The notes: generated from the sequence alone by a model not told the origin. 64,000 nt of DNA from an uncultured delta proteobacterium (GCA_963785725.1 CAWAWS010000026.1:128001-192000), one strand, 5' to 3'. Shown: positions 23,994 to 44,010, numbered from the stretch's first letter. Program-made: numbers and translations.

Positions 23994-25884
23994 ACGGCCC
24001 GCGCGACGACTCGGCCGACGGCGACGACGTCGCGCGCGCGCTCGCGGCCGCCGGCGACGTCGAGCGCTTCTTGTCCGCCGCCGGCGACGTCGAGCATTTC
24101 TCGGCCGAGCCGGTGCCGCGCGCGCTGCTCGAAGGTATCGTCGACGCCGCCACCGCCTGGCGTCCGCCGCGTTTTCAACAGCCGCCCGCGCGCGTGCTCA
24201 TCGTCGTCGGCGACGAGCGCGAGCGGCTGATCGCGCGGCTCTCGGAGGCGCTCGGCCGTCATTGGGGCACCGGCAGCGCGCCGCGCGGCCTCGGTCCCGC
24301 GTCGGTGCTGGCGGCGCCGGCGCTGGTGCTCGTGTTCTCGACCGGCTTGCCGTCGGAGGGCAACGAAGCCTTCGGCGTCGTCGCCGCCGCCGTGCAAAAC
24401 CTGGTGCTGATGGCGACGGCGGCCGGCCTCGGCAGCCATCGCATCGCCGCCGCGCATGCCGTGTCCGAAGCCGCGCTCGACTACGCCGCCGAGTTTCTCG
24501 GTCCGCAGGTGCGTGGCGGCGATCTGGCAACTTTGTTGGCGGTCGGCTGGCCCGAAGGCGAAGCGCCGCCGCGCGTGCCGCTCGCTCGGCGTGCGTCCGG
24601 TGTGGGCCGGCGCCGGTCCGCCGCTCGACGAGATGCCGTCGACGCCGTCCGACGACTTGCGCCCGCCCGCCGAAGTCTTGCGCGCCCGCGAACGCGAGCG
24701 GGTCATGGTCGTCGATCCGTATCCCTACAACCGCGCGAACTTGGAGGCGCAGCTCGTCCGCGCCGGCTACGAAGTCGAGGTGTTCTCCGACGGCACGTCG
24801 CTGTGGGCGCGCGTGCAGGCGAGCGGTCCGCCGGCGCTGTACATCGTGTCCGACACGCTGCCGGACACGCACGGCTTCGAGCTGGTGCGCCGGCTGACCG
24901 GCGGCGGCCAAGACAAGCGCGCGCCGGTGATGGTCACGGCGGCGCGGCGCGACTCGGCGTTTCGCGTGGCCGGCTTGGCCGCCGGCGTCGACTATTATCT
25001 GCGTAAGCCGGTCAACGGCGTCGAGCTGTTCACGGCCGCGCGCATCCTGCTCGATCGCCATCGGCTCGTCGAGGATCTGCGTCGCGCCAACAGCGAGCTC
25101 GAGCGGCTGCTCGTCGAATTGCGGGCGACCCAAGCGCGGCTCGTGCAGCACGCCAAGATGGCCGCGCTCGGGCAACTCGTCGCCGGCGTCGCGCACGAGA
25201 TCAACACGCCGCTGGCCGCCGTCGTGAACAACAACGATCTGTTCCTGCGCATCTTTGCGCGCATGCGGCAAGGGCGCATCGAAGAGCGCGACCTGGCCGC
25301 GATCGAGGACCTGTCGAAGGTGACGCGGCTGGCCTGCGCGCGCATGAGCGACATCGTGCGCACGCTGCGGACGTTCGCGCGGCTCGACGAGGCCGACGTC
25401 AAATCGGTCGATCTGCGCGAGGGCCTCGAGTCGACGCTGGTGCTCATCGCGCACCTGACCAAGAGCGGCATCGCCGTCGAGCGTCGTTACGGCGAGCTGC
25501 CGCGCGTCGAATGCCACCCGAACCAGATCAACCAAGTGTTCATGAACTTGTGCGTCAACGCCTGCCAGGCGATGGGCGAGCGCGGCACGCTGACGATCAC
25601 GACGCGCGTCGTCGACGAAGGCGCCGTCGAAGTGCGCATCCGCGACACCGGCGCCGGCATCGCCGCAAGACAAATTGCCGCGCATCTTCGATCCCGGCTT
25701 TACGACCAAGGGCGCGCTCTTCGGCACCGGTCTCGGCTTGTCGATCGTCTACCAGATCGTCGTCGACGGCCACGGCGGCGAAATCGCCGTCGAGAGCGAG
25801 CCCGGCGCCGGCACCGAGTTCGCCGTCAAGCTGCCCATTCACCACCTGCGCGACGTCAGCGGCCGCCAACTCTGGTCACGCTGA
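23990..25884 (+). CDS. Nitroreductase-like domain / atypical receiver / histidine kinase fusion (frameshifts near 24585 and 25670)
   Basis: GTG at 23990 overlaps the cca TGA; FSAEPVP, AAVQNLVLMATAAGLGS, LAVGWP; receiver ending YYLRKP; H-box VAHEINTP; NQVFMNLCVNA, DTGAG, and FTTK/GTGLGL in a third frame. Confidence 0.72.
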
Positions 25885-31726: not shown

Positions 31727-32143
31727 GTGAATGAGCTTTTGAGCGGACAAAATCGCACTCGTAAGCTGGTGGTCGCCGCGCTCGTGCGTGACGACGCCGG
31801 TCGCATCCTCTTGACGCAGCGGCGCCACGATCAGCCGATGCCGCTCAAGTGGGAATTTCCCGGCGGCAAGGTCGAGCCGGGCGAGGCGCCGGTGGCGGCG
31901 TTGGCGCGCGAAATCGAGGAGGAGCTCGGTTGCCAAGCCGAGATCGGTCGCATCGACGAGGTGGTCTTCCACGCCTACGCCGACTTCGATCTATATATGC
32001 TCGTCTACCGCTGCCGCTTATTGGGCGCTGCGCGCGCCGTCGAGGTCGCGCAGGTCCATTGGGTCGAGCGCGACCGCCTCTTGACCTACGACGTCCTGCC
32101 CGCCGACGTCGCGCTCGTCGAGCGGCTCGCCCGCGACGGCTGA
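31727..32143 (+). CDS. NUDIX hydrolase, MutT/NudG-like
   Basis: Nudix box WEFPGGKVEPGEAPVAALAREIEEELG; C-terminal LPAD. Confidence 0.92.
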   Translation: MNELLSGQNRTRKLVVAALVRDDAGRILLTQRRHDQPMPLKWEFPGGKVEPGEAPVAALAREIEEELGCQAEIGRIDEVVFHAYADFDLYMLVYRCRLLGAARAVEVAQVHWVERDRLLTYDVLPADVALVERLARDG

Positions 32144-32212: not shown

Positions 32213-34378
32213 GTGCACGCCCTCGCCGACCAGGTCCTGCTCGGCCCACGCTCGCTGCCGCCTTTGCTCGGCGGCTGCGTCGGCATGGCGTTGGCGCTCT
32301 TTTTGGCCATCAAGCCGGGCGAGTCGCGCAAGCGGACGTGGTTCGCCATCATCGCCTTTTGCTCGACGATCTGGTCCTGGGCGGCGGCGCTGTCGCTCGG
32401 CGCCTTGTCGCCCGAGCTCGGCTCGTGGCTGACGCGCGTGTCGTACGCGGCGATCGCGCTGGCCGGGCCGTGCGCGCTCAGCTTCGGCGCCGAGCTGGCG
32501 CGCGCGCCGACGAAGTGGCAGCGGCCGGCGCACGCGGTCGCGATCGTGGCCGCGGTCGCGATCTTGTGGCTGCCGGCGCTGACACACGTGCGACCGCGGC
32601 TGGGCGGCGGCTATTGGCCGGCGCCGTCGTGGTCACTCCTGCTGGCGGCGCTGGCGTCGGGACCGCCGCTCGTCGGCGGCATGCACCTCGTGCGGCGCGC
32701 GTGGCGACGCCTGCCGCCTTGCCGGCACCGGCGGCAGCTGGCGTGGGCGTGGGCGGCGCTGCTGCTCGGCGCGCTCGGCGTCTTCGATCTGCAGACGGTG
32801 CTGACCGGCTTCTATCCCACGGCCTGGCTGACCAGCATGCTCTCGTCGGTGACGCTGTTCTACGCCATCGCCCAGCATCGGCTCATGGCGACGCGCACGT
32901 TCATTCGTCAGGCGCTCATCGGCACCGTCGGGCTGTGCGCGGGCGCGCTCGTCGTCGTGGCGCTGGTGTCGTGGGCGCCGCGGCTGTTCGCGCAAGGCAG
33001 CGCCGGGCTCTTTTTGACGACGCTGGCGCTGTTCGCCGTCGTGCGGCTGTGGTCGAGCGCGGTCGAGCCGGCGCTGACGTATCTGTTCGGCTGGCGGCGC
33101 CGCCACATCGACCACGCCTTCGTCGAGTTCGAGCGCCGCTCGCTGGAGGCGCGCTCGACGGAGGAGGTCGCGCTGTGCCTGGCCGGCGCGCTGCGCGAAG
33201 CGTTCGACGCGCGCCTCGTGCGCCTCTTGCCGGCCGATCGCGACCGCGCCGACGAGCATCCCAGCATCGGCGTCGCTGAGGACGCGCTGGCCGAGTCGGG
33301 CGCGCCGCTCTTGCGCGATCTCGTCGAGCTCGATGACGCCCGCGCGCCGCGCATGCTCGACGCGCTCGATCGCTTGGGCGCCGACGCGCTCGTGCCGCTC
33401 ATGCGCGACACGCAGCTGCAGGCGATGGTGGCCATCGCCGGCGACGCGCTGTCGCCCGCCGACGACCTCGTCGCCGACGAGCTGCGCCGCATGGGTCAGC
33501 GCGCGGCGCTGGCCTGGGTCAACGCGCGGCTCTACAGCGAGGTCGCGCGCCGCTCGGCCGGCCTCGAGACGCAGGTTCGCCTGCGCACCGCCGAGCTCGA
33601 GCAGGCGCTCGGCGAGCTGCGCACGGCGCACGCGCGGCTCGTCGAGGTCGAGCGCACGTCGTCGCTGGGCCTGCTCGTCGCCGGCATCAGCCACGAGATC
33701 AACAACGCGCTCAACATCATCCACGCCAACTTGCCGACGCTGGCCCGCTACGCGCAGCGCTACGACGAGCTGGCGGGCGACGGCGGCTCCGCCGACCTGC
33801 AGATCGCGCGACAGCTGTGGCCGCGCGCCATCGCCGAGCTCGGCGACTCGGTGCGGCGCACGCGCGCCATCGTCGACAATCTACGCAAGTTCGCGCGGCC
33901 CGACACCGAGCGCCGCCTCGTGCGCGTGCAAGAAGGGCTCGACGCCGCGCTCAACCTCCTGCGCCGCCGCACCGACGGCCGCCTCGACATCGCGCGCGTC
34001 TACGCCGGCACGCCTTCCATCGACGGCTATCCCGGCCAGCTGAACCAGTGCTTCTTCAACCTGCTCTTGAACGCCGTCGAGGCTGCGCGCAGTGAGATCT
34101 GGGTCGTCCTCGGCCCGCGCGACGAATCGGGCGGCGTGTCGCTCATCATCAACGACGACGGCGACGGCGGCGAAGCCGACGACCAAGAGCGGCTCTTCTC
34201 GCCCGTCATGACGGCGCGTGAGCGCGCGAGCAGCCTCGGCCTCACCGTCTCGCGCAGCATCGTGCAGCGCCACGGCGGCACGCTCGAGGTCGCGCGCGCC
34301 GCCGGCGCCGGCGTGACGGTTCGCCTGACCTTACCGCCGAGCGCGCCCGCGCCGGCCGCCCCGAAGGACTCGGCATGA
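32213..34378 (+). CDS. Multi-TM (7TM-type) sensor histidine kinase with intact H-box and degenerate F/G2 boxes
   Basis: Many TM helices, GAF-like region, AGISHEINNAL, QCFFNLLLNAVEA, DDGDG, then LFSPVMTARERASSLGL. Confidence 0.88.
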   Translation: MHALADQVLLGPRSLPPLLGGCVGMALALFLAIKPGESRKRTWFAIIAFCSTIWSWAAALSLGALSPELGSWLTRVSYAAIALAGPCALSFGAELARAPTKWQRPAHAVAIVAAVAILWLPALTHVRPRLGGGYWPAPSWSLLLAALASGPPLVGGMHLVRRAWRRLPPCRHRRQLAWAWAALLLGALGVFDLQTVLTGFYPTAWLTSMLSSVTLFYAIAQHRLMATRTFIRQALIGTVGLCAGALVVVALVSWAPRLFAQGSAGLFLTTLALFAVVRLWSSAVEPALTYLFGWRRRHIDHAFVEFERRSLEARSTEEVALCLAGALREAFDARLVRLLPADRDRADEHPSIGVAEDALAESGAPLLRDLVELDDARAPRMLDALDRLGADALVPLMRDTQLQAMVAIAGDALSPADDLVADELRRMGQRAALAWVNARLYSEVARRSAGLETQVRLRTAELEQALGELRTAHARLVEVERTSSLGLLVAGISHEINNALNIIHANLPTLARYAQRYDELAGDGGSADLQIARQLWPRAIAELGDSVRRTRAIVDNLRKFARPDTERRLVRVQEGLDAALNLLRRRTDGRLDIARVYAGTPSIDGYPGQLNQCFFNLLLNAVEAARSEIWVVLGPRDESGGVSLIINDDGDGGEADDQERLFSPVMTARERASSLGLTVSRSIVQRHGGTLEVARAAGAGVTVRLTLPPSAPAPAAPKDSA

Positions 34379-34454
34379 GCGAGCGTGCGCGTTTGACCGA
34401 AGCCCGTCGGGCTCGCCGATCGACGGTAGGCCCTTTGCCGAACGAAGGGCAGCC

Positions 34455-35282
34455 ATGAGCGGCAAAGTGCTCATTCTCGACGGCGACGCCGCTCGCATCG
34501 GCCGCTTGGCGCAGGCCGTCACGCAAGCCGGCGGCGAGCCGCTCGAAGTGACCTCGACGGCGGCCGCCTTGCGCGTCGCCGCCGCCGCCGATTTGGCGTT
34601 GCTCGCCGGCAGCGAAGGCTTGGCCGCGCTGGCCGCGCTGTCGGCGTCGCATCCGTCGCTGCCGCGCATCAGCGTCATCGGCAACGCCACCGGGCCCGAG
34701 CTCGAGCGCCTGACCAGCACGATCCGCGTCGCGCTCTTGGCCAAGCGGCCGTCGGTGCGCGACTTCGAGACGCTGATTCGCGATCGCCGCACCGGCGCCT
34801 TCGGCTACCACTATTTCCGCGTGCGCCTCGCCGACGAGCTCGATCGCGCCGGCCGCTACGCGCGCGCCTTGTCGCTCATGTTCGTCGACGTCGATGATCT
34901 GCGCGGCCTCAACGATCGTCTCGGTCGTCCGGCCGGCGACTTCGCGCTCATGCAGGTCGCGCAGGCGCTGACCGCCGGCGCGCGCTCGGTCGACTGCGTC
35001 GGTCGCTGGGCGGGCGGCGGCTTCGCGGTGCTGTTGCCGGAGACGGCCGTCGGCGCCGCCTACGGCTTGGCCGAGCGGCTGCGCGCCGACCTGGCCGCGC
35101 GGCGACTGCCGGCGCCGCCCGCGCTCGTGCCGCAAGGTCGCCAGCTGCGCGTCACCGTCAGCTGCGGCGTGGCCTCGCTGTACAAAGACGGCACGGCGCG
35201 CCCGCAAACGCTCGTCGCCCGCGCCGACCACGCGTTGTGGCGCGCCAAGCTGAGCGGCCGCAACCGCTCGGTCGTCGACTAA
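34455..35282 (+). CDS. Pseudo-receiver plus degenerate GGDEF domain protein
   Basis: LMFVDVDDLRGLNDRLGRPAGD, RSVDCVGRWAGGGF, ADHALWRAKLSGRN. Confidence 0.88.
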   Translation: MSGKVLILDGDAARIGRLAQAVTQAGGEPLEVTSTAAALRVAAAADLALLAGSEGLAALAALSASHPSLPRISVIGNATGPELERLTSTIRVALLAKRPSVRDFETLIRDRRTGAFGYHYFRVRLADELDRAGRYARALSLMFVDVDDLRGLNDRLGRPAGDFALMQVAQALTAGARSVDCVGRWAGGGFAVLLPETAVGAAYGLAERLRADLAARRLPAPPALVPQGRQLRVTVSCGVASLYKDGTARPQTLVARADHALWRAKLSGRNRSVVD

Positions 35283-35288
35283 CGGCGC

Positions 35289-37490
35289 ATGATCAGGCTG
35301 TATCCGACCGGCTGGCTCGCGCTCTATTGGCTGTCCGCCGCCGTCGGTGCGCTGTTGACCGTGCTGCTACGCCAGCGCGGCCACGGGCTGTTACGCCGGC
35401 GCGTCACGCTCATCCTCGCCAACGTCAGCGTCGTCCTCTTCAGCAACGGCCTCATCCTCGGCGCCACCAACGCCCTGACGGCGACGTGGGCCGTCCGCTT
35501 CTCGCAGTTCTTCGTCTGCTGGCTGCCCTTTACCGGCGTGCGCTTCGTGACGGCGTTGGCCAATCGCCGCATGGTCGTGCTCGAGCGCGCCACGCTCATC
35601 GCCGCGCCCTTGACCGCGCTCTTGTCGCTGGCCACGCCGTGGGTCATCGCCGACGCGCGGCCCTATCCGTACGGCTTTGCGGGCGTGGCCGGGCCGCTCT
35701 ATCCCTTGGCGCTCGGCGAGATGATGCTGATGGTGGCGATGCCGCTCGTCGTCTTCGGCGCCTACTTGGACGAGCGGCGACCGCTGGAAAAGCGGCAGCT
35801 CGCCAACATCGCCGTCGCCTGCGCGTCGGGCATGATCGCGTTCGTCGACATTCTGCCGGTGCTCGGCTTCGACGTGCCGCCGATCGGCTGGATACCGCTC
35901 GACTTCGCCGCCTTCGGCCTCATCACCGCCATCATTCGCTACCGCTTCCTCGACATTCGCATGGCCTCGCGGCGGCTGTTGTGGTGGACGGCGACGACGC
36001 TCGCCGGCGCGCTCGTCTTCGCCGTGCCGCTCGGCCCGCTGGCGCCACATCTGACGCGCCATCGGCTCGCGCTCGGCATCTTCGCGGCGCTCCTCCTCTT
36101 GCTCATGCGCGTCTGGGTGGGCACGGCGCAGGCGCGCATCGATCGGCTCGTCGGTCGCCGGCGCCGCGACCTCGACGCCGAGATGGCGCACCTGTCCGAC
36201 GCCGTCGCCGCGCTGCAGACGACCGAAGCGCTCGGCCGCGCCATCGACCGCTTCTTGGTGGCGATCGATCGTCGCTTGGCCGCGCTCGTCGTGCTCGAGC
36301 CGTCGGGCAAGGCGCGCGTCGCCTTGTCGGCGTGGGGCTCGGTGCCGGCGCCGTCGCGGCAGAGCCCGCTGTACGCCGAGCTGCGCGCGCTCGGTCCGCT
36401 CGTGTGGCGCGATCAGGTGCGCGGCAGCAAAGTCGAGGTCGAGCGCGCCTGCGTCCGCTGGGGTGCGGAGTACCTGGCGCCACTCGTCGATGGCGAGGAG
36501 CTGTTGGCCATCGTCGCGGTGGCGCCCAAAGCCGGCGGCGGTCTCGCCGACGTGCTCGAGCTGGAGGCGCTCGAGCGCATGTGCGTGACGGTGACGGCGG
36601 CGCTGGCGTCGGCGCGGCTCTACGAACGCTTGCGCGCGCTGCACCACGAGCTCGAGGCGAAGGCCGAGGCGCGCCAGGTCTCGCTGGCGACCGCGCTGCG
36701 CGACCTGCGCGGCGCCGAGCAGCGGCTCGTGCAGTCGGAGAAGATGGCGTCGCTCGGCCAGATCGTCGGCGGCGTCGCGGCCGATCTCGTCGACGAAGTG
36801 CGCGGCGTGCACGACCGCGTCGCGCAGCTGCGCAGCCACGCCGAGGAGGTCGCGACGGCCGTGCACGCGCGCCTCGACGCCGCGCCCGAGCTCGCCGACG
36901 AAGCGGTGCGCGACATGGCGCGCGATCTCGGCCCGCTGCTCGACGCCGTCGGCGAAGGCGGCCGCCGCGCGCTCGCCATCGCCCAAGATTTGTCGCGCTT
37001 CGCGCCCAGCGCCGATGAAGAGGCCGAAGGTCCGCGTCGCGCGCCCGCGCGTCTCCAAGATCTATGCGACGGCACGCTCAAGCTGTGCGCCGGCCACTTG
37101 GCGGGCGTCGACGTAGTTCGCCGCTACGACGCCGACCTGCCGCCGGTGCTGGTGGAATCGGGCCCACTGGGACAAGTCGTGCTCAACCTCGTCCTCAACG
37201 CGACGCAGGCCATGAAAGGCGTCGGCACCTTGACCATCGCCACCGCGCGCTGCGAGTGGGACGGCCGCGCCGGCGCCGAGCTCATCGTGCACGACACCGG
37301 CCCCGGCATCGCGCCCGAGATCTTGCCGCGCATCTTCGAGCCCTTCTTCTCGACCAAGGGTCAAACCCTGGGCACGGGCCTCGGCTTGAGCGTCAGCTAC
37401 GGCATCGTCGAACGCCACGGCGGCCGCATTCATGTCGAGTCCAAACCGGGTGCCGGATCGACCTTCCGCGTACAACTACCGATAGGCTAA
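35289..37490 (+). CDS. Multi-TM (7TM-type) histidine kinase-like protein lacking the phosphoacceptor His, intact HATPase
   Basis: QSEKMASLGQIVGGVAADLVDEV (His replaced by Ala); QVVLNLVLNATQAM, DTGPGI, FEPFFSTK, GTGLGL. Confidence 0.88.
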   Translation: MIRLYPTGWLALYWLSAAVGALLTVLLRQRGHGLLRRRVTLILANVSVVLFSNGLILGATNALTATWAVRFSQFFVCWLPFTGVRFVTALANRRMVVLERATLIAAPLTALLSLATPWVIADARPYPYGFAGVAGPLYPLALGEMMLMVAMPLVVFGAYLDERRPLEKRQLANIAVACASGMIAFVDILPVLGFDVPPIGWIPLDFAAFGLITAIIRYRFLDIRMASRRLLWWTATTLAGALVFAVPLGPLAPHLTRHRLALGIFAALLLLLMRVWVGTAQARIDRLVGRRRRDLDAEMAHLSDAVAALQTTEALGRAIDRFLVAIDRRLAALVVLEPSGKARVALSAWGSVPAPSRQSPLYAELRALGPLVWRDQVRGSKVEVERACVRWGAEYLAPLVDGEELLAIVAVAPKAGGGLADVLELEALERMCVTVTAALASARLYERLRALHHELEAKAEARQVSLATALRDLRGAEQRLVQSEKMASLGQIVGGVAADLVDEVRGVHDRVAQLRSHAEEVATAVHARLDAAPELADEAVRDMARDLGPLLDAVGEGGRRALAIAQDLSRFAPSADEEAEGPRRAPARLQDLCDGTLKLCAGHLAGVDVVRRYDADLPPVLVESGPLGQVVLNLVLNATQAMKGVGTLTIATARCEWDGRAGAELIVHDTGPGIAPEILPRIFEPFFSTKGQTLGTGLGLSVSYGIVERHGGRIHVESKPGAGSTFRVQLPIG

Positions 37491-37696: not shown

Positions 37697-38593
37697 ATGC
37701 GTCGCAGCCCATATATGCTTTCTGTCGCGTTTGCCGCCACGTTGGTGAGCGGTTGCCTCGGCTCGGTGGGAACGCCTGAGCCGCAAACTCAGACCCCGAC
37801 GACCGGCAACGGCGCCAGCGCCGGTGGCGGCGGCAGCGCCGCGGCTGGTAGCGGCGGCAGCGCCGGCGGTGGCGGCACCGTCGCCGCGGCTGGCGGCGGC
37901 GGCTCGTCGTCCGCGGGCGGTGGCGGCACCGTCGAAGCGCCGCCGCCGGATGCCGGTCCGCCGGCGCTCACCGGCGCCATCGCCATCGCGCTCGACAAGA
38001 CGACGGATACCATCCGTCTCAACGAGAGCCACTCGTACACGGCCACGATCACGCCGTCGAACGGCTTCTCCGGCAGCGTCACGCTCGCGCTCGACAACCC
38101 GCCCGCGGGTGTGTCGGCGACCTTCGATCCGGCCGCCATCATGGTCTCGGCTACGCCGGCCACTGTCGCCGTGACCATCAGCGTCGCCTCCGACATGGCG
38201 ACCCCGGCCGCCTCGGTGCCGCTCTCGATCAAGGGCGTCTCGGGCGAGATTACGGCGGCCGCCGCGCTCGGCGTCATGATTCCCGCCGAGCTCTACGTGC
38301 AGATTCCGAAGGGCGTCAACATCGGCACCGCGGCCGCGCCCAACATGACCGCCTTCGGCAAGTACGGCATGCCCGTCATCCAAGTCGCCGCCGGCACCAA
38401 GGTCACTTGGGTCAACGGCGACACCATCAACCACGAGATCCACTCGGGCGGCGGCCAGGGCATCGCGCACGAGCCCGGTCCGCTGCTCGCCAACGGCGGC
38501 AACGCGTACTCGCAGACCTTCTCGGCCAAGGGCACCTTCACCTATCGCTGCCACATCCATCCGAACATGGAGGGACAGATCATCGTCCAGTAG
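37697..38593 (+). CDS. Lipoprotein with Gly-rich linker, Ig-like domain and C-terminal cupredoxin (type 1 copper) domain
   Basis: AAGGAG RBS; lipobox VSGC; GTKVTWVN...HEIHS...GTFTYRCHIHPNMEG (His, Cys, His, Met ligands). Confidence 0.88.
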   Translation: MRRSPYMLSVAFAATLVSGCLGSVGTPEPQTQTPTTGNGASAGGGGSAAAGSGGSAGGGGTVAAAGGGGSSSAGGGGTVEAPPPDAGPPALTGAIAIALDKTTDTIRLNESHSYTATITPSNGFSGSVTLALDNPPAGVSATFDPAAIMVSATPATVAVTISVASDMATPAASVPLSIKGVSGEITAAAALGVMIPAELYVQIPKGVNIGTAAAPNMTAFGKYGMPVIQVAAGTKVTWVNGDTINHEIHSGGGQGIAHEPGPLLANGGNAYSQTFSAKGTFTYRCHIHPNMEGQIIVQ

Positions 38594-38809: not shown

Positions 38810-41800
38810 GTGCAAACCAAGTTGGCAGCGGCGGTGTGGAGCGGCCGCTGGCGGCTCGACCGCTGCGTCGGCACCGGCGCCGACGGCACGACGTGGGCCG
38901 CCACCGATCTGCGCGACGATCGCCCGGTCGCGCTCAAGGTCCTGCACGCGGCGCTCGACGAGGAGGCGCGTGAGCGGCTGCGCTGGGAGTTCGTGCTGCT
39001 CGGCGCCATCGAGCATCCGCATCTGGTGCGCGTCTTCGATCTCGACTGCATCGAGGGCCGGCCGTTCTACACGAGCGAGCTGCTCGACGGAGCCGCGCCA
39101 ACTCGGTTGGCGACGCTGCCGCCGGCCGAGCGGGCGCGCAAGCTCTGTCAGACGTTGGCCGAGGTCGGCAGCGCGCTCGACGCCTTGCATCGCCGCGGGC
39201 TCGTCCATCACGACGTCAAGCCGGCCAACCTGCTCGTCGATGCCGAGGGGCGCACGCGGCTCGGCGACTTGGGGCTGGCCGCGCTGCTCGGCGCCGTCGG
39301 TGGCAGCGGCGGGGCGCGCGGGACGCCGGCCTATCTGGCGCCCGAAGCGTGGCTTCGGCGGCGGCGATGCGCGCGTCGACCTCTATGCGCTGGGCGCGAC
39401 GGCGTACGAGCTGTGGAGCGGGCGCGCCCCGTTCGTCGCCGCTTCCTTGCCGAGCTGTTGGCGCAGACGCAGACGACGCGTCCGCCGCCGCTCGCCGACG
39501 CGCCCGAAGGGTTGGCGCAGCTCGATCGAGCGGCTCTTGGCGCTCGACCCGGCGGCACGCCCGTCGACGGCGCGCGCGGTCGTCGACGAAGCGCGGCGCT
39601 TGGGGGCGCGACTCGACGGTGCGCTCGACGGCGGTCGCGACGCGCCGGTCTTGTGTCGTCCGCTCTTGGCCGGTCGTGAGCGCGAGCTGTCGGCGCTGCG
39701 TTCGGCCTTGGCGACCGCGCGGCTCATCCTCGTCGAAGGCGCGCCCGGCTCCGGTCGCTCACGGCTGATCGACGAGGCGCGGCGCGCGCAGCAGCTCGAC
39801 GACGTGGCCGCGCGGCCGCGCGGCGACGCCGTGGCGGCAGCTCGCCGACGAGGCGCCGGCGCGGCTGTGCGCGCAGCTGGCCGCGACGCCGGCGCGGCTG
39901 CACGTGGCGCGCGTCGACGAGCCGCGCGTCGAGGAGCTGTTGACGATGGTCGCGCACGGCGCCGCCGCGCCGTCGGTCGTGCTGGCCGAAGTCGAGAGCG
40001 GGGCGTTGCCGCAGCTCGACGGTGAAGGTGTCGTTCGCTTGTCGCTCGATCGCCTCGACGAGCCGGCGGTGACGCGGCTCGTGACGTCGATGTTCGGCCG
40101 CGCTGACGACGAGCTGGCGCGTGCCGTCCATCGCGCCAGCGGCGGGCTGCCGCGCATCGCCGTCGCCATCGTGCGCGCGGCCGCCGCCGCCGCCGATGGG
40201 CAGCCGCTGGCCAACCAAGTGGCCAGGTTGGCAGGGCAGGGGCTCGGCGATTTGTTGGCGGCGTCGCTCGCTCGACTGCCGCCCGCGGCGCGCGCGCTCG
40301 TCGACGCTGCCGCCGTCTTGGGCCGCGCCGCATCGCTGCCGGAGGTCGCCGCGCTGGCGCAGGTCTCGGTGGAGGAGGCGTACGCGGCGGCGTTGCAGGC
40401 GCGGGCGGCGGGAGCGCTCGACCTCGACCGCAGCGGCCGCCTGCAGTTTCCGTCGACGGCGCACGCCGAGGCCGCCTATTCCGCGCTCGATCGGCGACGC
40501 CGCCCGGCGCTTCATCGGCGCGCGCTGGCGGACGCCGTCGACGTCGTCGATCGGGCGCGCCACCAGGTCGCGCTCGCCGACGATGACGCCGGCGCCGCGG
40601 CCGTCGTCGCCGGCGACCAGCTGCTCGAGCGCGGTCAGGCGCGCACGGCGCTGCGCCTCCTGGCCGACGCCGAGCGGCTCGGCGCCGACGTCTTGCCGCC
40701 CGCCGCGCAGCTCGTTCGCGCCCGCGCGTTCACGCAAACCGGCGACTACGACGCGGCGCTGTCCGCGCTCACCATCCTGGAACGCGCCCTCGATCGTTCC
40801 GCGGATCGCGTTGGCGATCGTGCCGGCGACGCGCGCTTGCGCCTCGACGCCGCCGTCATCGCGGCTCGCGCGCTGCAGCGGGCCGGCGATCTCGTCGCCG
40901 CCGAGGCGCGCCTGGCGCCCATCCTCGCCGCCGGCGCCATCGCCGGCACGACGCCGCGCAGCCGCGACGAAGTGCGCGGGCTCCTCGGTCGCATCTTGGT
41001 CGCGCGCGGCGCCTACGCCGAAGCCGTCGCCGCCTGCGCCAGCTCCGAGCTGCCGTCGGCTAGCGTCGCCGAAGCGCGCGGCCTCGGCAGCCTCTACCTC
41101 GGTCGCCTCGACGACGCCGACGGCGCCTTCGCCGCCGCCGAGCGCGCCGCCGCCGATGAGCCAACTTCGTTGGCAAGGGCGCGATCGCTGCGCGGCATGG
41201 CCGCTCACGGCCGCGATCGGCTGGCCGAAGCCGCCGCGCTCTATCAGTCGGCGCTCGAGCTCGCCCGTAAAGCCGACGATCTGCATGGCGCCGCCATTTA
41301 CGCCGCCAACCTGGGCGCGGTGTTGCGCGAGCAGGCCGAGTACGAGCGCGCGTTGCCGCCGACCGCCGACGCTGCGCGCGACCTCGGTCGTCTCGGCAAG
41401 CGCGCCGAGCGCGCCTTCGCGCTCTACAATTACGGCAACCTGCTCCTGTCGATCGGCGATCTGGACGGCGCCGAGCAGGCCGCGACCGATGCTGCGGCCT
41501 TGGCGCGCGCCGCCGCCGCCACGCGTGAGCTCGGCTACGCGCAGCTGCTTAGCGGCGATCTGGCGCGCCGCCGCGGCGACCATCGAGCGGCCGTCCTCGC
41601 TTATCGCGCCGGCGCGGCCAGCCTGGCCGGCTCGCCCGCCGCCGACCGCTTGCAAGCCGCGCTCAACGTGGCCGAAGCGCTCGCCGAGAGCGGTGATCCG
41701 GCAGCCGGACGCGCCGCCTTGGCCGACGCTCGGACACTGGCCGCCGCTGCCAACCAAGTTGACAGCTTTCATCCGACCGCCGCGCGGGTGGCGTTGCTCG

Positions 41801-43921
41801 TCGGTGACACCGTCGCCGTCGAGCTGCTGGCCGAGCTGACCCGCCTGCGCGAGCAGGCCGCCGTCAGCTTGCGCCGCGATCTCGCCTTTCGCGCCGATGT
41901 CTTGGCCGCGCGCGCCCACATCCGCGCCGGCAACGGCGCCGCCGCCTACGACTGCCTCATCCGTGCCCGCTCGACCTGGGAGGAGATTCGCATGCGCACG
42001 CCCGAGCTCCGTCGCGAAGCCGCCGACGAAGATCCCGACGCCCGCCGGCTGCGCGAGCTGCTTGCCGCCGCCGCCGATTCGTCGCGCAGCCGGCCCGCGC
42101 CGCCCGCGTCACCGCCACCCGCGCTCGCGGCGACGGCGAGCTCGCCGGCGTTGCCGCTCGTGTCAGCGGCGTCGCTCGTGTCGTCCACGTCCGCGCCATT
42201 CGGTGTGTTAACGCCGACATTACCCATATCGGCGCCGTTCGCGCTCCAGTCATCGCCCTTCGGCGCGCTCGCGCCGTCGCTGTCATCGTCGGCGTCGCTG
42301 CCGCTTTCGCCGTCCGCCGCAGCGTCGTCGCCGTCGCCGCCGGATGCCGCCGCGCTGCGCCGTCTCCTCGGCATCAACAAGCGGCTCAACTCCGAGCAGC
42401 GCTTGCCGGTCCTGCTCGATCTCATCCTCGACACCGTCCTCGACCTCGCCTCGGCGGAGCGCGGCTTCATCCTGCTCACCGACGGCGCCGGCCAGTGGCA
42501 AGTCGAAGCCGCGCGCAACATCGCCGAGGAGCAGCTCGCCGCCGACGGCCCCGGCGGCGCCTTCTCGCGCAGCATCGCCGAGCGGGCCGCGCGCGAAGCC
42601 GTCCCCATCGTCACGCTCGACGCCAGCGGCGATCACCGCTTCGAAGCCGCGCTCTCCGTCTCCGACCTCAAGCTGCGCTCGGTCCTCGCCGTCCCGCTCA
42701 TCGTCAAAGGCACCGTCGTCGGCTGCGTCTACGCCGACCATCGTCTGCGCGCCGGCGCCTTCGGCTACAGCGAGGTCGCGCTCGTCTGCGATCTCGCCGA
42801 GCAGGCCGCCATCGCCGTCGAGAACGCGCGCCTGCACGCCGAAAACGAGCGCCGCCGTAAAGCCATCGACGAGCTCAACCGCGAGCTCGAGCACAAGGTC
42901 GCGTCGCAAGCGCTCGAGCTCGGCGAGCTGCACAAAGAGGTGCGCACGAGCCGCGCCGCGCTCTCGTCACGCTACAACTACGACAACTTGGTTGGCAGGA
43001 CGCCGCGCATGCTCGAGCTCTTTCGGCTGCTCGACCGCGTCACCGAGACGTCGCTGCCGGTCGTCATCTACGGCGAATCCGGCACCGGCAAGGAGCTCGT
43101 CGCCCGCGCCATCCATCACAACGGCCCGCGCCGCGCCCGCGCCTTCGTCACCGAATCGTGCGCCGCCATCCCCGAGACGCTGCTCGAGGCCGCGCTCTTC
43201 GGCCACGTGCGCGGCGCCTTCACCGGCGCCGACGCCGATCGCCGCGGCCTCTTCGAGATCGCCGACCAGGGCACGCTCTTCCTCGACGAAGTGGGCGAGA
43301 TGTCGCCGGCGATGCAGTCGAAGCTCTTGCGCGTGCTGCAACAGGGCGAGTTCCGTCGCGTCGGCGGCGAGAAGACGCACAAAGTCGACGTCCGCCTGCT
43401 CGTCGCCTCCAACCGCGACCTCGGCCGCCTCGTCGAGCAGGGCAAGTTTCGCGAGGATTCGTTCTACCGCCTCAATGTCGTGCGCGTCGGCCTGCCGCCG
43501 CTGCGCGAGCGGCGCGACGACATCCCGCTCCTCGTCGAGCACTTCCTGAAGAAATTCGCCGACGAGAACAAGCGCCCGCCGCGCCGCATCGCCCGCGCCG
43601 CCTTGCACAAGCTCATCGGCTACCGCTGGCCCGGCAACGTGCGCGAGCTCGAGAACGAGGTCGTCCGCGCCGCGTCGCTCGGTGGCGAGACCATCGCCGT
43701 CGACGATTTGTCGCCGCCGGTGGCCGCCGGCGAGCCGGAAGCGGCCGTCGACTCGCCCGACGATCCTCGGCATCAAGCCGCGCGTCGAACGCTTGGAGCG
43801 CACGCTGCTTCGCGAAGCCTTGCAGCGCGCCGACGGCAACCAGACCCAAGCCGCCAAGCTGCTCGGCCTGTCGCGCTTCGGTCTGCAGAAGAAGCTGCGC
43901 CGCTATGGTCTCGAGGCCTGA
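38810..43921 (+). CDS. Ser/Thr kinase - ATPase - TPR - GAF - sigma54 AAA+ - HTH fusion (several frameshifts at about 39350-39850 and 43765)
   Basis: VALK, HHDVKPAN, DLG, GTPAYLAPE; LAGRERELSAL, GAPGSGRSRL; TPRs; GAF (AERGFILL...RSVLAVPL); [39 protein letters not shown] in a shifted frame. Confidence 0.8.
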
Positions 43922-44010
43922 CCGCGCACTCGGTTGCGTGACTTGCCAACTAAGTTGCCAATGCCGCCGATGCGACGCACGTCGTTCGCGGAGTTGCGCG
44001 CGCCGTCGTC

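What the first reader, a model, noticed from the sequence alone, without database searches (positions are those of the whole stretch)
32213..37490. Reciprocally defective pair of 7TM histidine kinases: candidate obligate heterodimeric kinase
Seen: two similarly built proteins (721 and 733 aa; TM bundle, GAF-like region, DHp, CA) in one co-directional cluster. Kinase A keeps the H-box (GISHEINN) but its ATP lid is eroded (LFSPVMTAR for IFEPFFTTK; SSLGL for GTGLGL). Kinase B has perfect N/G1/F/G2 boxes but its H-box reads GVAADLVDE, with no His. Neither change involves a frameshift. Known: many kinases phosphorylate in trans within a dimer, and single pseudokinases such as DivL exist. Inference: only the A/B heterodimer is active, with B's CA domain phosphorylating A's His. 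That would form an AND gate over two membrane sensors, with a degenerate GGDEF protein encoded between them.
Basis: partly seen in the sequence, partly recalled or inferred. Interest (0 to 1): 0.85.

Follow-up and report, generated by a model that had tools for sequence, protein, structure and literature searches.

The report
Two half-kinases that complete each other
Uncultured myxobacterial relatives (Polyangia) carry a conserved pair of neighbouring membrane sensor kinases, one that has lost the histidine that accepts the phosphate but keeps an intact ATP site, and one that keeps the histidine while its ATP site has eroded in some lineages, so the two likely work as a single enzyme built from two different halves.

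Summary
The sequences are as described, and the pair is conserved. Kinase A, a REC-GGDEF gene and kinase B are adjacent in all 10 genomes where either was found, across three families of the class. One genus has lost both kinases but kept the GGDEF gene between them.

B lacks the His in 56 of 56 close and 4 of 4 distant homologues, yet keeps intact ATP boxes. A keeps His-Glu in 63 of 63. The reciprocity is weaker than claimed. The lid collapse seen here occurs in only 4 of 63 A proteins (two independent events). The other 59 lost only the first G2 glycine, and 5 of 8 distant A proteins have an intact G2 box.

B's ATP lid is better conserved than A's (0.81 vs 0.55), and A's post-His helix better than B's (0.89 vs 0.55). 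That asymmetry is what trans phosphorylation in an A/B heterodimer predicts (about 0.6; binding untested). The ancestral output is an intact REC-GGDEF protein. In this family it has decayed to a pseudo-receiver with an RxxD site, so the phospho-acceptor is unknown. The AND-gate idea has no support. The closest precedent is streptococcal FasB/FasC.

The parts
32213..34378 (+). Kinase A (721 aa): HisKA_7TM helical bundle, GAF-like domain, coiled coil, DHp with His494-Glu495-x-x-Asn498, CA domain with eroded lid. Proposed phospho-acceptor subunit.
   Evidence: His box in 63 of 63 homologues
33692..33706 (+). A H-box core H494-E495-I-N-N498, which keeps both the kinase residue (acidic, H+1) and the phosphatase residue (Asn, H+4). 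The usual Pro at H+5 is Ala in all homologues.
   Evidence: roles of these positions from PMC3510030 (abstract)
33890..33982 (+). A's short, nearly invariant, Arg-rich DHp-CA linker and first CA helix (residues 560-590). Possible fixed docking surface (inference).
   Evidence: 25 of these 31 positions are 90% or more conserved; identity over residues 564-606 is 0.81 in A vs 0.55 in B
34163..34243 (+). A ATP lid to G2 box (residues 651-677): F box eroded, G2 reads ASSLGL (first and second Gly lost)
   Evidence: derived state of a nested three-member clade
34455..35282 (+). Pseudo-receiver plus degenerate GGDEF protein (275 aa): no acceptor Asp, GGDEF reads AGGGF (35010-35024), I-site RxxD kept (RSVD, 34983-34994). 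Descends from an intact REC-GGDEF response regulator.
35289..37490 (+). Kinase B (733 aa): same architecture, His-less DHp, long variable DHp-CA linker, fully conserved N/G1/F/G2 boxes. Proposed catalytic subunit.
36780..36785 (+). B Ala498-Asp499 at the His and His+1 positions
   Evidence: His in 0 of 56 (A51, T3, R1, S1); D or E at +1 in 58 of 58
37371..37388 (+). B G2 box GTGLGL
   Evidence: all three Gly in 57 of 57 homologues that cover it
31727..32143 (+). Nudix hydrolase gene just upstream, co-directional and syntenic in the family; fused to the GGDEF part in the genus that lacks A and B

Best explanation
A and B are sister paralogues from one duplication of a membrane (7TM-GAF) histidine kinase, B has lost the phospho-accepting His but keeps an intact ATP site, and the two likely form a heterodimer in which B's ATP-binding domain would phosphorylate His494 of A in trans. 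Shown: the operon, its conservation, the motif states and the opposite conservation patterns. Inferred: (1) A and B pair through their coiled coils and DHp helices. B keeps the buried heptad positions L500, V504, V507 and V511 while the exposed face varies. (2) The dimer phosphorylates in trans, so B's CA is the productive one. A's CA faces a His-less helix and is free to erode, which has happened stepwise: first G2 Gly lost in at least three places on the tree, full lid collapse twice. (3) Only A docks a response regulator and can act as phosphatase (Asn498 invariant). (4) The ancestral target is the REC-GGDEF protein encoded between them, which is intact in three distant genomes, so the pair originally would set c-di-GMP signalling. 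In the window's family that protein has become a pseudo-receiver with an RxxD site, likely a c-di-GMP-binding adaptor, and A's phosphate would go to a receiver encoded elsewhere. Dependence on B is likely absolute only where A's lid has collapsed (this window's clade, P0096). Elsewhere A may keep some activity of its own.
For: Adjacent A-(REC)GGDEF-B in 10 of 10 genomes holding either gene: 7 in the window's family and 3 in two families outside its order. In two of the ten an assembly break cuts one gene. Genus g5 (3 of 3 genomes, 76-90% complete) keeps the synteny and the GGDEF part but lacks both flanking kinases, which needs two deletions. B is His-less in 56 of 56 close and 4 of 4 distant homologues. 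Its N, G1, F and G2 key residues are present in 57-58 of 57-58. A has His-Glu in 63 of 63, the first G2 Gly in 0 of 63, and both G2 glycines lost in 4 of 63. In the same genome 129 of 135 scored CA domains keep that first Gly. Over 21 presumed pairs, lid identity is 0.55 in A (0.59 without the window's clade) vs 0.81 in B, and post-His helix identity is 0.89 vs 0.55. In 4 genomes with a canonical neighbour kinase as control, lid/whole identity is 0.81/0.81 for the control, 0.65/0.78 for A and 0.91/0.75 for B. A clade (SH-aLRT 99) and B clade (100) are sisters (92) in a quick tree built without the lid. The window's lid collapse is nested and separate from P0096. His-less plus G2-dead mutants complement in trans in EnvZ and GacS (PMC4734776, PMC8498467; passages). 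A natural division of labour of this kind is proposed for FasB/FasC (PMC12675982).
Against: Most A proteins keep the N-box Asn (63 of 64), G1 (62 of 64) and the F box (59 of 63), and A's CA as a whole is as conserved as B's (0.71 vs 0.69). So A's CA is not dead weight, and loss of one G2 glycine alone is not shown to stop ATP binding (searches found no paper on it). 5 of 8 distant A proteins have an intact G2 box although their lineage's B is already His-less. Whether this subfamily phosphorylates in cis or trans was not determined. A crude coiled-coil charge count favours A-A (-3.8) over A-B (-2.0) and B-B (+0.1), so A homodimers are not excluded. B also conserves an acid at His+1 without a His, so A's invariant Glu does not prove autophosphorylation. 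In the window's family the only co-encoded receiver has no Asp (13 of 13 rows, 10 distinct), and no acceptor was identified. The 21 pairs rest on equal contig lengths (indirect). The homologues are related and not independent.
Confidence: 0.6

Rival explanations
1. A is the working kinase/phosphatase on its own (homodimer or cis). B is a nucleotide-binding pseudokinase that tunes or blocks A by swapping into the dimer, as RetS does to GacS. The window's clade is then a late, kinase-dead offshoot.
For: A's CA is intact in 5 of 8 distant and nearly intact in 59 of 63 close homologues. Whole-CA conservation equals B's. The A-A coiled-coil charge count is favourable. Inhibitory HK heterodimers are known (PMC8498467, passages).
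Against: RetS has lost ATP binding and DivL binds it poorly (PMC8498467, PMC4211667), whereas B's ATP site is better conserved than A's and than a canonical control. Two independent A lineages lost the lid but kept His-Glu-x-x-Asn.
Confidence: 0.2
2. In the window's family the module no longer passes phosphate forward. The A/B complex is a phosphatase or an allosteric scaffold: B senses ATP/ADP, A drains a receiver through Asn498, and the pseudo-receiver GGDEF protein docks on A's conserved Arg-rich linker in a c-di-GMP-dependent way.
For: The co-encoded regulator lost its Asp and GGDEF acids in the same family in which A lost the G2 glycine. A's linker and first CA helix are nearly invariant. 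The pseudo-receiver part is gone where A and B are gone.
Against: His494 and Glu495 stay invariant (63 of 63), and the acid at His+1 serves kinase, not phosphatase, activity in HisKA proteins (PMC3510030, abstract). The GGDEF part persists without the kinases in genus g5, so it is not tied to them alone.
Confidence: 0.12
3. B's CA phosphorylates a different His-bearing partner (another DHp or a phosphotransfer protein), and A and B act in parallel on one pathway without forming a catalytic heterodimer.
For: The genome holds about 139 CA-domain hits, so other partners exist. No binding data.
Against: Strict adjacency and joint loss of A and B. B keeps the buried DHp and coiled-coil positions in register with A.
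Confidence: 0.05
4. The defects are sequencing errors or early pseudogene decay of a tandem duplicate.
For: The window has apparent frameshifts in nearby genes.
Against: Both states recur in dozens of independently assembled homologues down to about 36% identity, with open frames.
Confidence: 0.02

Closest known systems
FasB/FasC of group A Streptococcus (PMC12675982; read: abstract, sections 2.1, 2.5, 2.6, first part of Discussion)
   Same: Two membrane kinase-like paralogues in one operon with a response regulator. Two-hybrid shows heterodimers and no homodimers. FasC's His246 is needed while its kinase domain is dispensable. The authors propose that FasB's kinase domain phosphorylates FasC's His.
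   Different: FasB still has DHp histidines, and cis phosphorylation on H284 was not excluded. Here B has no His at all, in every homologue. A's ATP site shows a graded evolutionary decay. The architecture (HisKA_7TM, GAF, NtrB-like core) and the output (REC-GGDEF) differ. No homology test between the systems was run.
Split kinases CheA3/CheA4 of Rhodobacter sphaeroides (PMC3591291, passages) and Hik36/Hik43 of Synechocystis (PMC7656254, passages)
   Same: The His and the ATP-binding activity sit on different polypeptides. In CheA3/CheA4 neither autophosphorylates alone, and the His-bearing partner is also the phosphatase.
   Different: These are CheA-class proteins that physically lack whole domains. 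Here both partners are full-length HisKA-class paralogues with their own sensor bundles, disabled by point changes.
RetS-GacS heterodimer (PMC8498467, passages) and the ChrS pseudokinase/HrrS pair (PMC9491836, abstract)
   Same: A DHp-DHp heterodimer between different kinases.
   Different: RetS keeps its His, has lost ATP binding and inhibits a self-sufficient GacS. ChrS-fs is a laboratory-evolved CA frameshift. Here the pairing is predicted to be activating.
DivL pseudokinase of Caulobacter (PMC4211667; abstract and one results section)
   Same: HisKA-type protein with no phospho-His.
   Different: DivL binds ATP poorly and uses its regulator-docking face as an input. B has the opposite pattern: conserved ATP site, unconserved docking face.
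Engineered His-minus plus G2-minus complementation pairs (EnvZ H243A with G401A/G403A, PMC4734776; GacS H293A with G472A/G474A, PMC8498467)
   Same: The window's A (first two G2 glycines lost) and B (His to Ala) are the natural counterparts of these two mutants.
   Different: Those are laboratory constructs of one gene. This is a fixed two-gene system.

Membership tests
Canonical HisKA (NtrB-like) sensor kinase, protein A | Phospho-His with acidic H+1 and Thr/Asn at H+4 | tested here: met
   H494, E495 and N498 in 64 of 64
Canonical HisKA (NtrB-like) sensor kinase, protein A | Intact N, G1, F and G2 boxes | tested here: not met
   Window: F box eroded, two G2 glycines lost. Family: first G2 Gly in 0 of 63, F box in 59 of 63. 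Intact in 5 of 8 distant homologues.
Canonical HisKA (NtrB-like) sensor kinase, protein B | Phospho-His in the H box | tested here: not met
   0 of 56 close and 0 of 4 distant. No substitute His in the DHp above 36 of 56.
Canonical HisKA (NtrB-like) sensor kinase, protein B | Intact N, G1, F and G2 boxes | tested here: met
   57-58 of 57-58 at the key residues
FasBC-like heterodimeric kinase | Two membrane kinase paralogues co-encoded with a response regulator | tested here: met
   10 of 10 genomes adjacent. The regulator's receiver is intact in 3 distant genomes and a pseudo-receiver in the window's family.
FasBC-like heterodimeric kinase | His supplied by one partner, catalysis by the other | tested here: inconclusive
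   Motif and conservation asymmetry fit, but most A proteins keep much of the ATP site; no biochemistry
FasBC-like heterodimeric kinase | Heterodimers form and homodimers do not | not testable with these tools
   Needs two-hybrid or co-purification
CheA3/CheA4-type split kinase | Partners lack whole domains (His domain or catalytic domain); CheA architecture | tested here: not met
   Both proteins carry DHp and CA folds
DivL/RetS-type pseudokinase (protein B) | Weak or lost ATP binding | tested here: not met
   Sequence level only: B's lid identity 0.81-0.91, above A and the control
DivL/RetS-type pseudokinase (protein B) | Conserved regulator-docking face on DHp helix 1 (DivL) | tested here: not met
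   Exposed post-His positions vary; identity 0.55
PrsK (TIGR02916), 7TM-GAF-kinase of PEP-CTERM systems | Score above the curated cut-off of 300 bits | tested here: not met
   A 46.7, B 61.1 bits; no NCBIfam equivalog among those listed reached its cut-off
Degenerate GGDEF c-di-GMP receptor (middle protein) | GG[DE]EF signature lost, RxxD I-site kept | tested here: met
   [AS]GG[GAT]F with R-[SA]-V-D in 13 of 13 rows, 10 distinct
Degenerate GGDEF c-di-GMP receptor (middle protein) | Binds c-di-GMP and lacks cyclase activity | not testable with these tools
   Needs binding and activity assays

The most novel reading that the evidence does not exclude
This is a natural, fully obligate heterodimeric HisKA kinase caught at successive stages of its making. 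A duplicated sensor kinase first lost the His on one copy. Because catalysis runs in trans, the other copy's ATP site then became redundant and decayed repeatedly, locking the two genes together. In this window's clade neither protein can signal alone. A's retired CA domain has been re-used as a fixed docking surface for the c-di-GMP-binding pseudo-receiver protein encoded between them.
Probability: 0.35. Interest if true: 0.8.

Novelty: new variant of a known kind. Interest (0 to 1): 0.63.

Why it matters
HisKA kinases are treated as homodimers. Known heterodimers are mostly inhibitory (RetS-GacS), and the one proposed activating pair found in the searches (FasB/FasC) lacks biochemistry and keeps a His on both partners. 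This operon would be a clean natural case: one partner has no His in any homologue. The family also offers a graded series (A intact, A minus one glycine, A lid collapsed) in which dependence on B can be measured step by step. That makes directly testable whether heterodimeric kinases signal as productive units and how obligate heteromers arise from duplicated homomers. It also gives annotators a search rule: a His-less kinase with a perfect ATP site may be a catalytic subunit and not a dead gene.

Tried and rejected
The wide profile search was likewise never run, so more distant pairs may have been missed.

Single-chain AlphaFold models (mean pLDDT 83 and 84) confirm the architecture but cannot tell cis from trans. 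A's lid (663-669) and the end of B's lid (692-696) are both below pLDDT 50, which is uninformative. Foldseek and the PDB sequence search gave ordinary kinase cores (best: ZraS) and no heterodimeric template.

The phylum-wide search with the B alignment (401 genomes, only 2 candidates scored per genome) gave the window and two weak C-terminal hits that I did not examine. The class searches had the same shallow scoring and missed a known A in G001, so their blanks are weak.

A regex recount of G2 glycines in the genome's kinases (last part) caught G1 boxes and was discarded. The HMM-aligned count is used; it dropped 4 of 139 hits with gaps in the box.

An attempt to support the single Gly-to-Ala change with an AtoS or EnvZ mutant failed. 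AtoS Gly563 is the first G2 glycine, but searches and look-up found no paper and my recall of the phenotype is unsure, so it is not used.

The coiled-coil charge count does not favour A-B over A-A.

The search for a phospho-acceptor in the window's genome gave several receivers 40-48% identical to the ancestral one, none singled out.

Earlier scan notes held nothing on this locus.

Rejected: sequencing error, pseudogene decay, PrsK membership, CheA-type split kinase membership, and the AND-gate reading as unsupported.


Full report
OBSERVATION. A and B align at 31% over 574 columns. Both have a HisKA_7TM-like N-terminus (A above, B just below the Pfam cut-off) and HATPase_c. AlphaFold models show a long helical N-terminal bundle, a GAF-like alpha/beta domain, a coiled coil, DHp and CA in each, and distant A homologues hit GAF above cut-off. 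A has His494-Glu495-Ile-Asn-Asn498, intact N and G1 boxes, and an eroded F-lid-G2 stretch ending ASSLGL. B has Ala-Asp in place of His-Glu and textbook ATP boxes. Source labels of close hits say Polyangia or Myxococcales.

CONSERVATION AND LINKAGE. Among 41 genomes searched with A and with B, full-strength matches to both occur in the same 7 (G000-G004, G010, G012), always as A-GGDEF-B (in G001 the start of A is on another contig). A DNA pattern for B's H-box region gave 6 loci in the 185,579-genome collection, all titled as Myxococcales, Polyangia or delta-proteobacterial MAGs. Six metagenome loci carry B; five show A upstream and one is cut off. A distant His-less protein (P0135) led to three more genomes in two families outside the order (G445, G453, G460). 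They have the same gene order at about 35-44% identity (in G445 B is split over two contigs). So the pair is adjacent in 10 of 10 genomes where either gene was found. The large searches scored only 2 candidates per genome, so blanks there are weak. Genus g5 of the window's family (G008, G013, G014; 89, 90, 76% complete) keeps DUF507-Nudix-GGDEF-protein kinase in order but lacks both kinases. In G013 the GGDEF part is fused to Nudix without its receiver, and neither kinase was found elsewhere in those genomes. Since A and B flank the retained gene, losing both takes two events. The three genomes are kin and count as one case.

WHAT IS AND IS NOT RECIPROCAL. B has no His in 56 of 56 close homologues (Ala 51, Thr 3, Arg 1, Ser 1) or in 4 of 4 distant ones. 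It keeps both N-box Asn (58 of 58), the G1 Asp and glycines and all three G2 glycines (57 of 57). Of the 62 hits, three canonical outgroups and two truncated or frameshifted proteins were left out; the C-terminally cut P0028 and P0046 were also left out of the 56-row set. A keeps the His box in 63 of 63. The first G2 glycine is missing in 63 of 63 (typically KAAGLGL), whereas 129 of 135 scored CA domains of the same genome have it. But the F box is intact in 59 of 63, and both G2 glycines are gone in only 4: the window, P0064, P0065 and P0096. Of the 68 hits, the near-copy P0063, three frameshifted proteins and two distant ones were left out of that set. A tree built without the lid places the first three in one nested clade whose sisters have the common state. 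P0096, which has a lid deletion plus changes at the N-box Asn and G1 Asp, lies apart (quick tree). Among 8 distant A proteins, 5 have an intact GSGLGL and 3 have lost the first glycine, in two separate subclades. A and B form sister clades against canonical kinases (SH-aLRT 99, 100, 92, quick tree on a chosen subset of 51 rows). The order of events is thus: duplication, early loss of His in B, later and repeated erosion of A's lid.

THE ASYMMETRY. For 21 A/B pairs (paired by equal contig length, which is indirect), mean pairwise identity is equal in the membrane part (0.47/0.47) and in the whole CA (0.71/0.69). It is opposite in the two functional patches: post-His helix 0.89 in A vs 0.55 in B, ATP lid 0.55 vs 0.81 (0.59 vs 0.80 without the window's clade). 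In four genomes a neighbouring canonical REC-kinase serves as control. Its lid equals its average (0.81/0.81), A's lies below (0.65/0.78) and B's above (0.91/0.75). On B's helix 1 the buried positions (L500, V504, V507, V511) stay conserved and the exposed ones vary, as expected for a helix that still packs in a four-helix bundle but docks no regulator. B's DHp-CA linker is long and variable. A's is short, Arg-rich and nearly invariant together with the first CA helix. In a heterodimer that phosphorylates in cis, B's ATP site would be the useless one and should decay. In trans, A's would. The data fit trans (inference). Double Ala substitution of two G2 glycines is the standard ATP-non-binding mutant, which a His-less partner rescues in trans (EnvZ G401A/G403A, PMC4734776; GacS, PMC8498467; passages). 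The window's A has lost the first two.

AGAINST. A's CA as a whole is conserved, and most A proteins keep the N, G1 and F boxes. I found no paper on the effect of losing the first G2 glycine alone, so most A proteins may still bind nucleotide or even autophosphorylate. Intact distant A proteins coexist with His-less B. A crude charge count on the coiled coil favours A-A over A-B. B conserves an acid at His+1 without a His, which weakens the use of A's Glu495 as proof of kinase activity, although that residue serves kinase and Asn at H+4 serves phosphatase activity in HisKA proteins (PMC3510030, abstract). The cis or trans mode of this subfamily is not established here, and binding between A and B is untested.

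THE MIDDLE GENE AND THE OUTPUT. In G445, G453 and G460 the middle gene is a true response regulator: receiver with acidic pocket, Asp, Thr and Lys, Pfam Response_reg 69.6 bits for G453, and GGEEF or GGDEF. Its cyclase substrate-binding stretch is partly eroded, so activity is unsure. It is the natural cognate target (inference). In the window's family the receiver lacks the Asp and the signature reads [AS]GG[GAT]F, while the RxxD site is kept in 13 of 13 rows (10 distinct). By established GGDEF rules (recalled) this is a c-di-GMP binder, not a cyclase. The acceptor of A's phosphate in this family is unknown; several receivers in the genome are 40-48% identical to the ancestral one. The signal sensed is unknown. 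Nothing here tests an AND gate; one composite sensor is as likely.

COMPARISON AND NOVELTY. The working principle has precedent. FasB/FasC form heterodimers, need FasC's His and not its kinase domain, but FasB keeps histidines (PMC12675982; abstract, sections 2.1, 2.5, 2.6, first part of the Discussion). CheA3/CheA4 and Hik36/Hik43 split whole domains (PMC3591291, PMC7656254; passages). RetS-GacS is inhibitory (PMC8498467; passages). DivL is His-less with poor ATP binding (PMC4211667; abstract, one section). A His-less hybrid kinase was suggested to heterodimerise in Caulobacter (PMC11481889; passage). PMC12189002 (passages) and PMC9491836 (abstract) were also seen. No NCBIfam family among those listed names either protein above cut-off. 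Searches showed no paper on this operon or on a natural full-length HisKA pair with a universally His-less catalytic partner. None of them named the taxon or the 7TM domain, one search was swamped by unrelated papers, the library lacks most subscription journals, and no supplements were read. I rate it a new variant of a known kind.

VERDICT. Observation confirmed; interpretation partly supported. Heterodimer with B acting on A in trans: 0.6. A self-sufficient with B as modulator: 0.2. Phosphatase or scaffold: 0.12. Interest 0.63.

Noticed in passing
L073:8897-9868 (-), also L072 and L074 (genus g5): Nudix hydrolase fused in frame to the degenerate GGDEF domain (RxxD kept, SRGGF at the signature) in G013, with the two parts abutting in G008 and G014; these are the genomes that lack both kinases. 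Possibly a c-di-GMP-regulated Nudix enzyme.
   Followed up: partly
window 38810-43941: The protein kinase and TPR-GAF-sigma54 activator ORFs are split here but form one ORF in L044, L045, L046 and L073 (1548 aa in L073): a Ser/Thr kinase-TPR-GAF-sigma54 fusion, with a likely frameshift or assembly indel in the window.
   Followed up: partly
window about 24690-25870: A REC-HisKA-CA hybrid kinase, syntenic in G001, G002, G004 and G010, changes frame inside the ATP lid near 25700 in the window; intact in the relatives.
   Followed up: partly
window 33890-33982 (A residues 560-590): Nearly invariant Arg-rich linker and helix containing R-R-T-D, an RxxD-like motif, on A's CA domain; could be a partner or c-di-GMP docking site.
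   Followed up: no
G000:C39:718802-721429: Another kinase-like ORF of the same genome has no His in its H box (ANELNNPL) and an AAGLGL G2 box, so both halves are altered in one protein.
   Followed up: no
G000:C8:49661, C17:124901, C3:497896, C24:195906: Four kinases with Asn in place of the G1 Asp and N[LI]GLG at G2, with intact His boxes: a second group with a non-canonical ATP site.
   Followed up: no
window 37697-38593: Cupredoxin-domain protein with a lipoprotein-like N-terminus and a Gly-rich linker follows B in the window's family (7 genomes) and is also missing from the locus in genus g5.
   Followed up: partly
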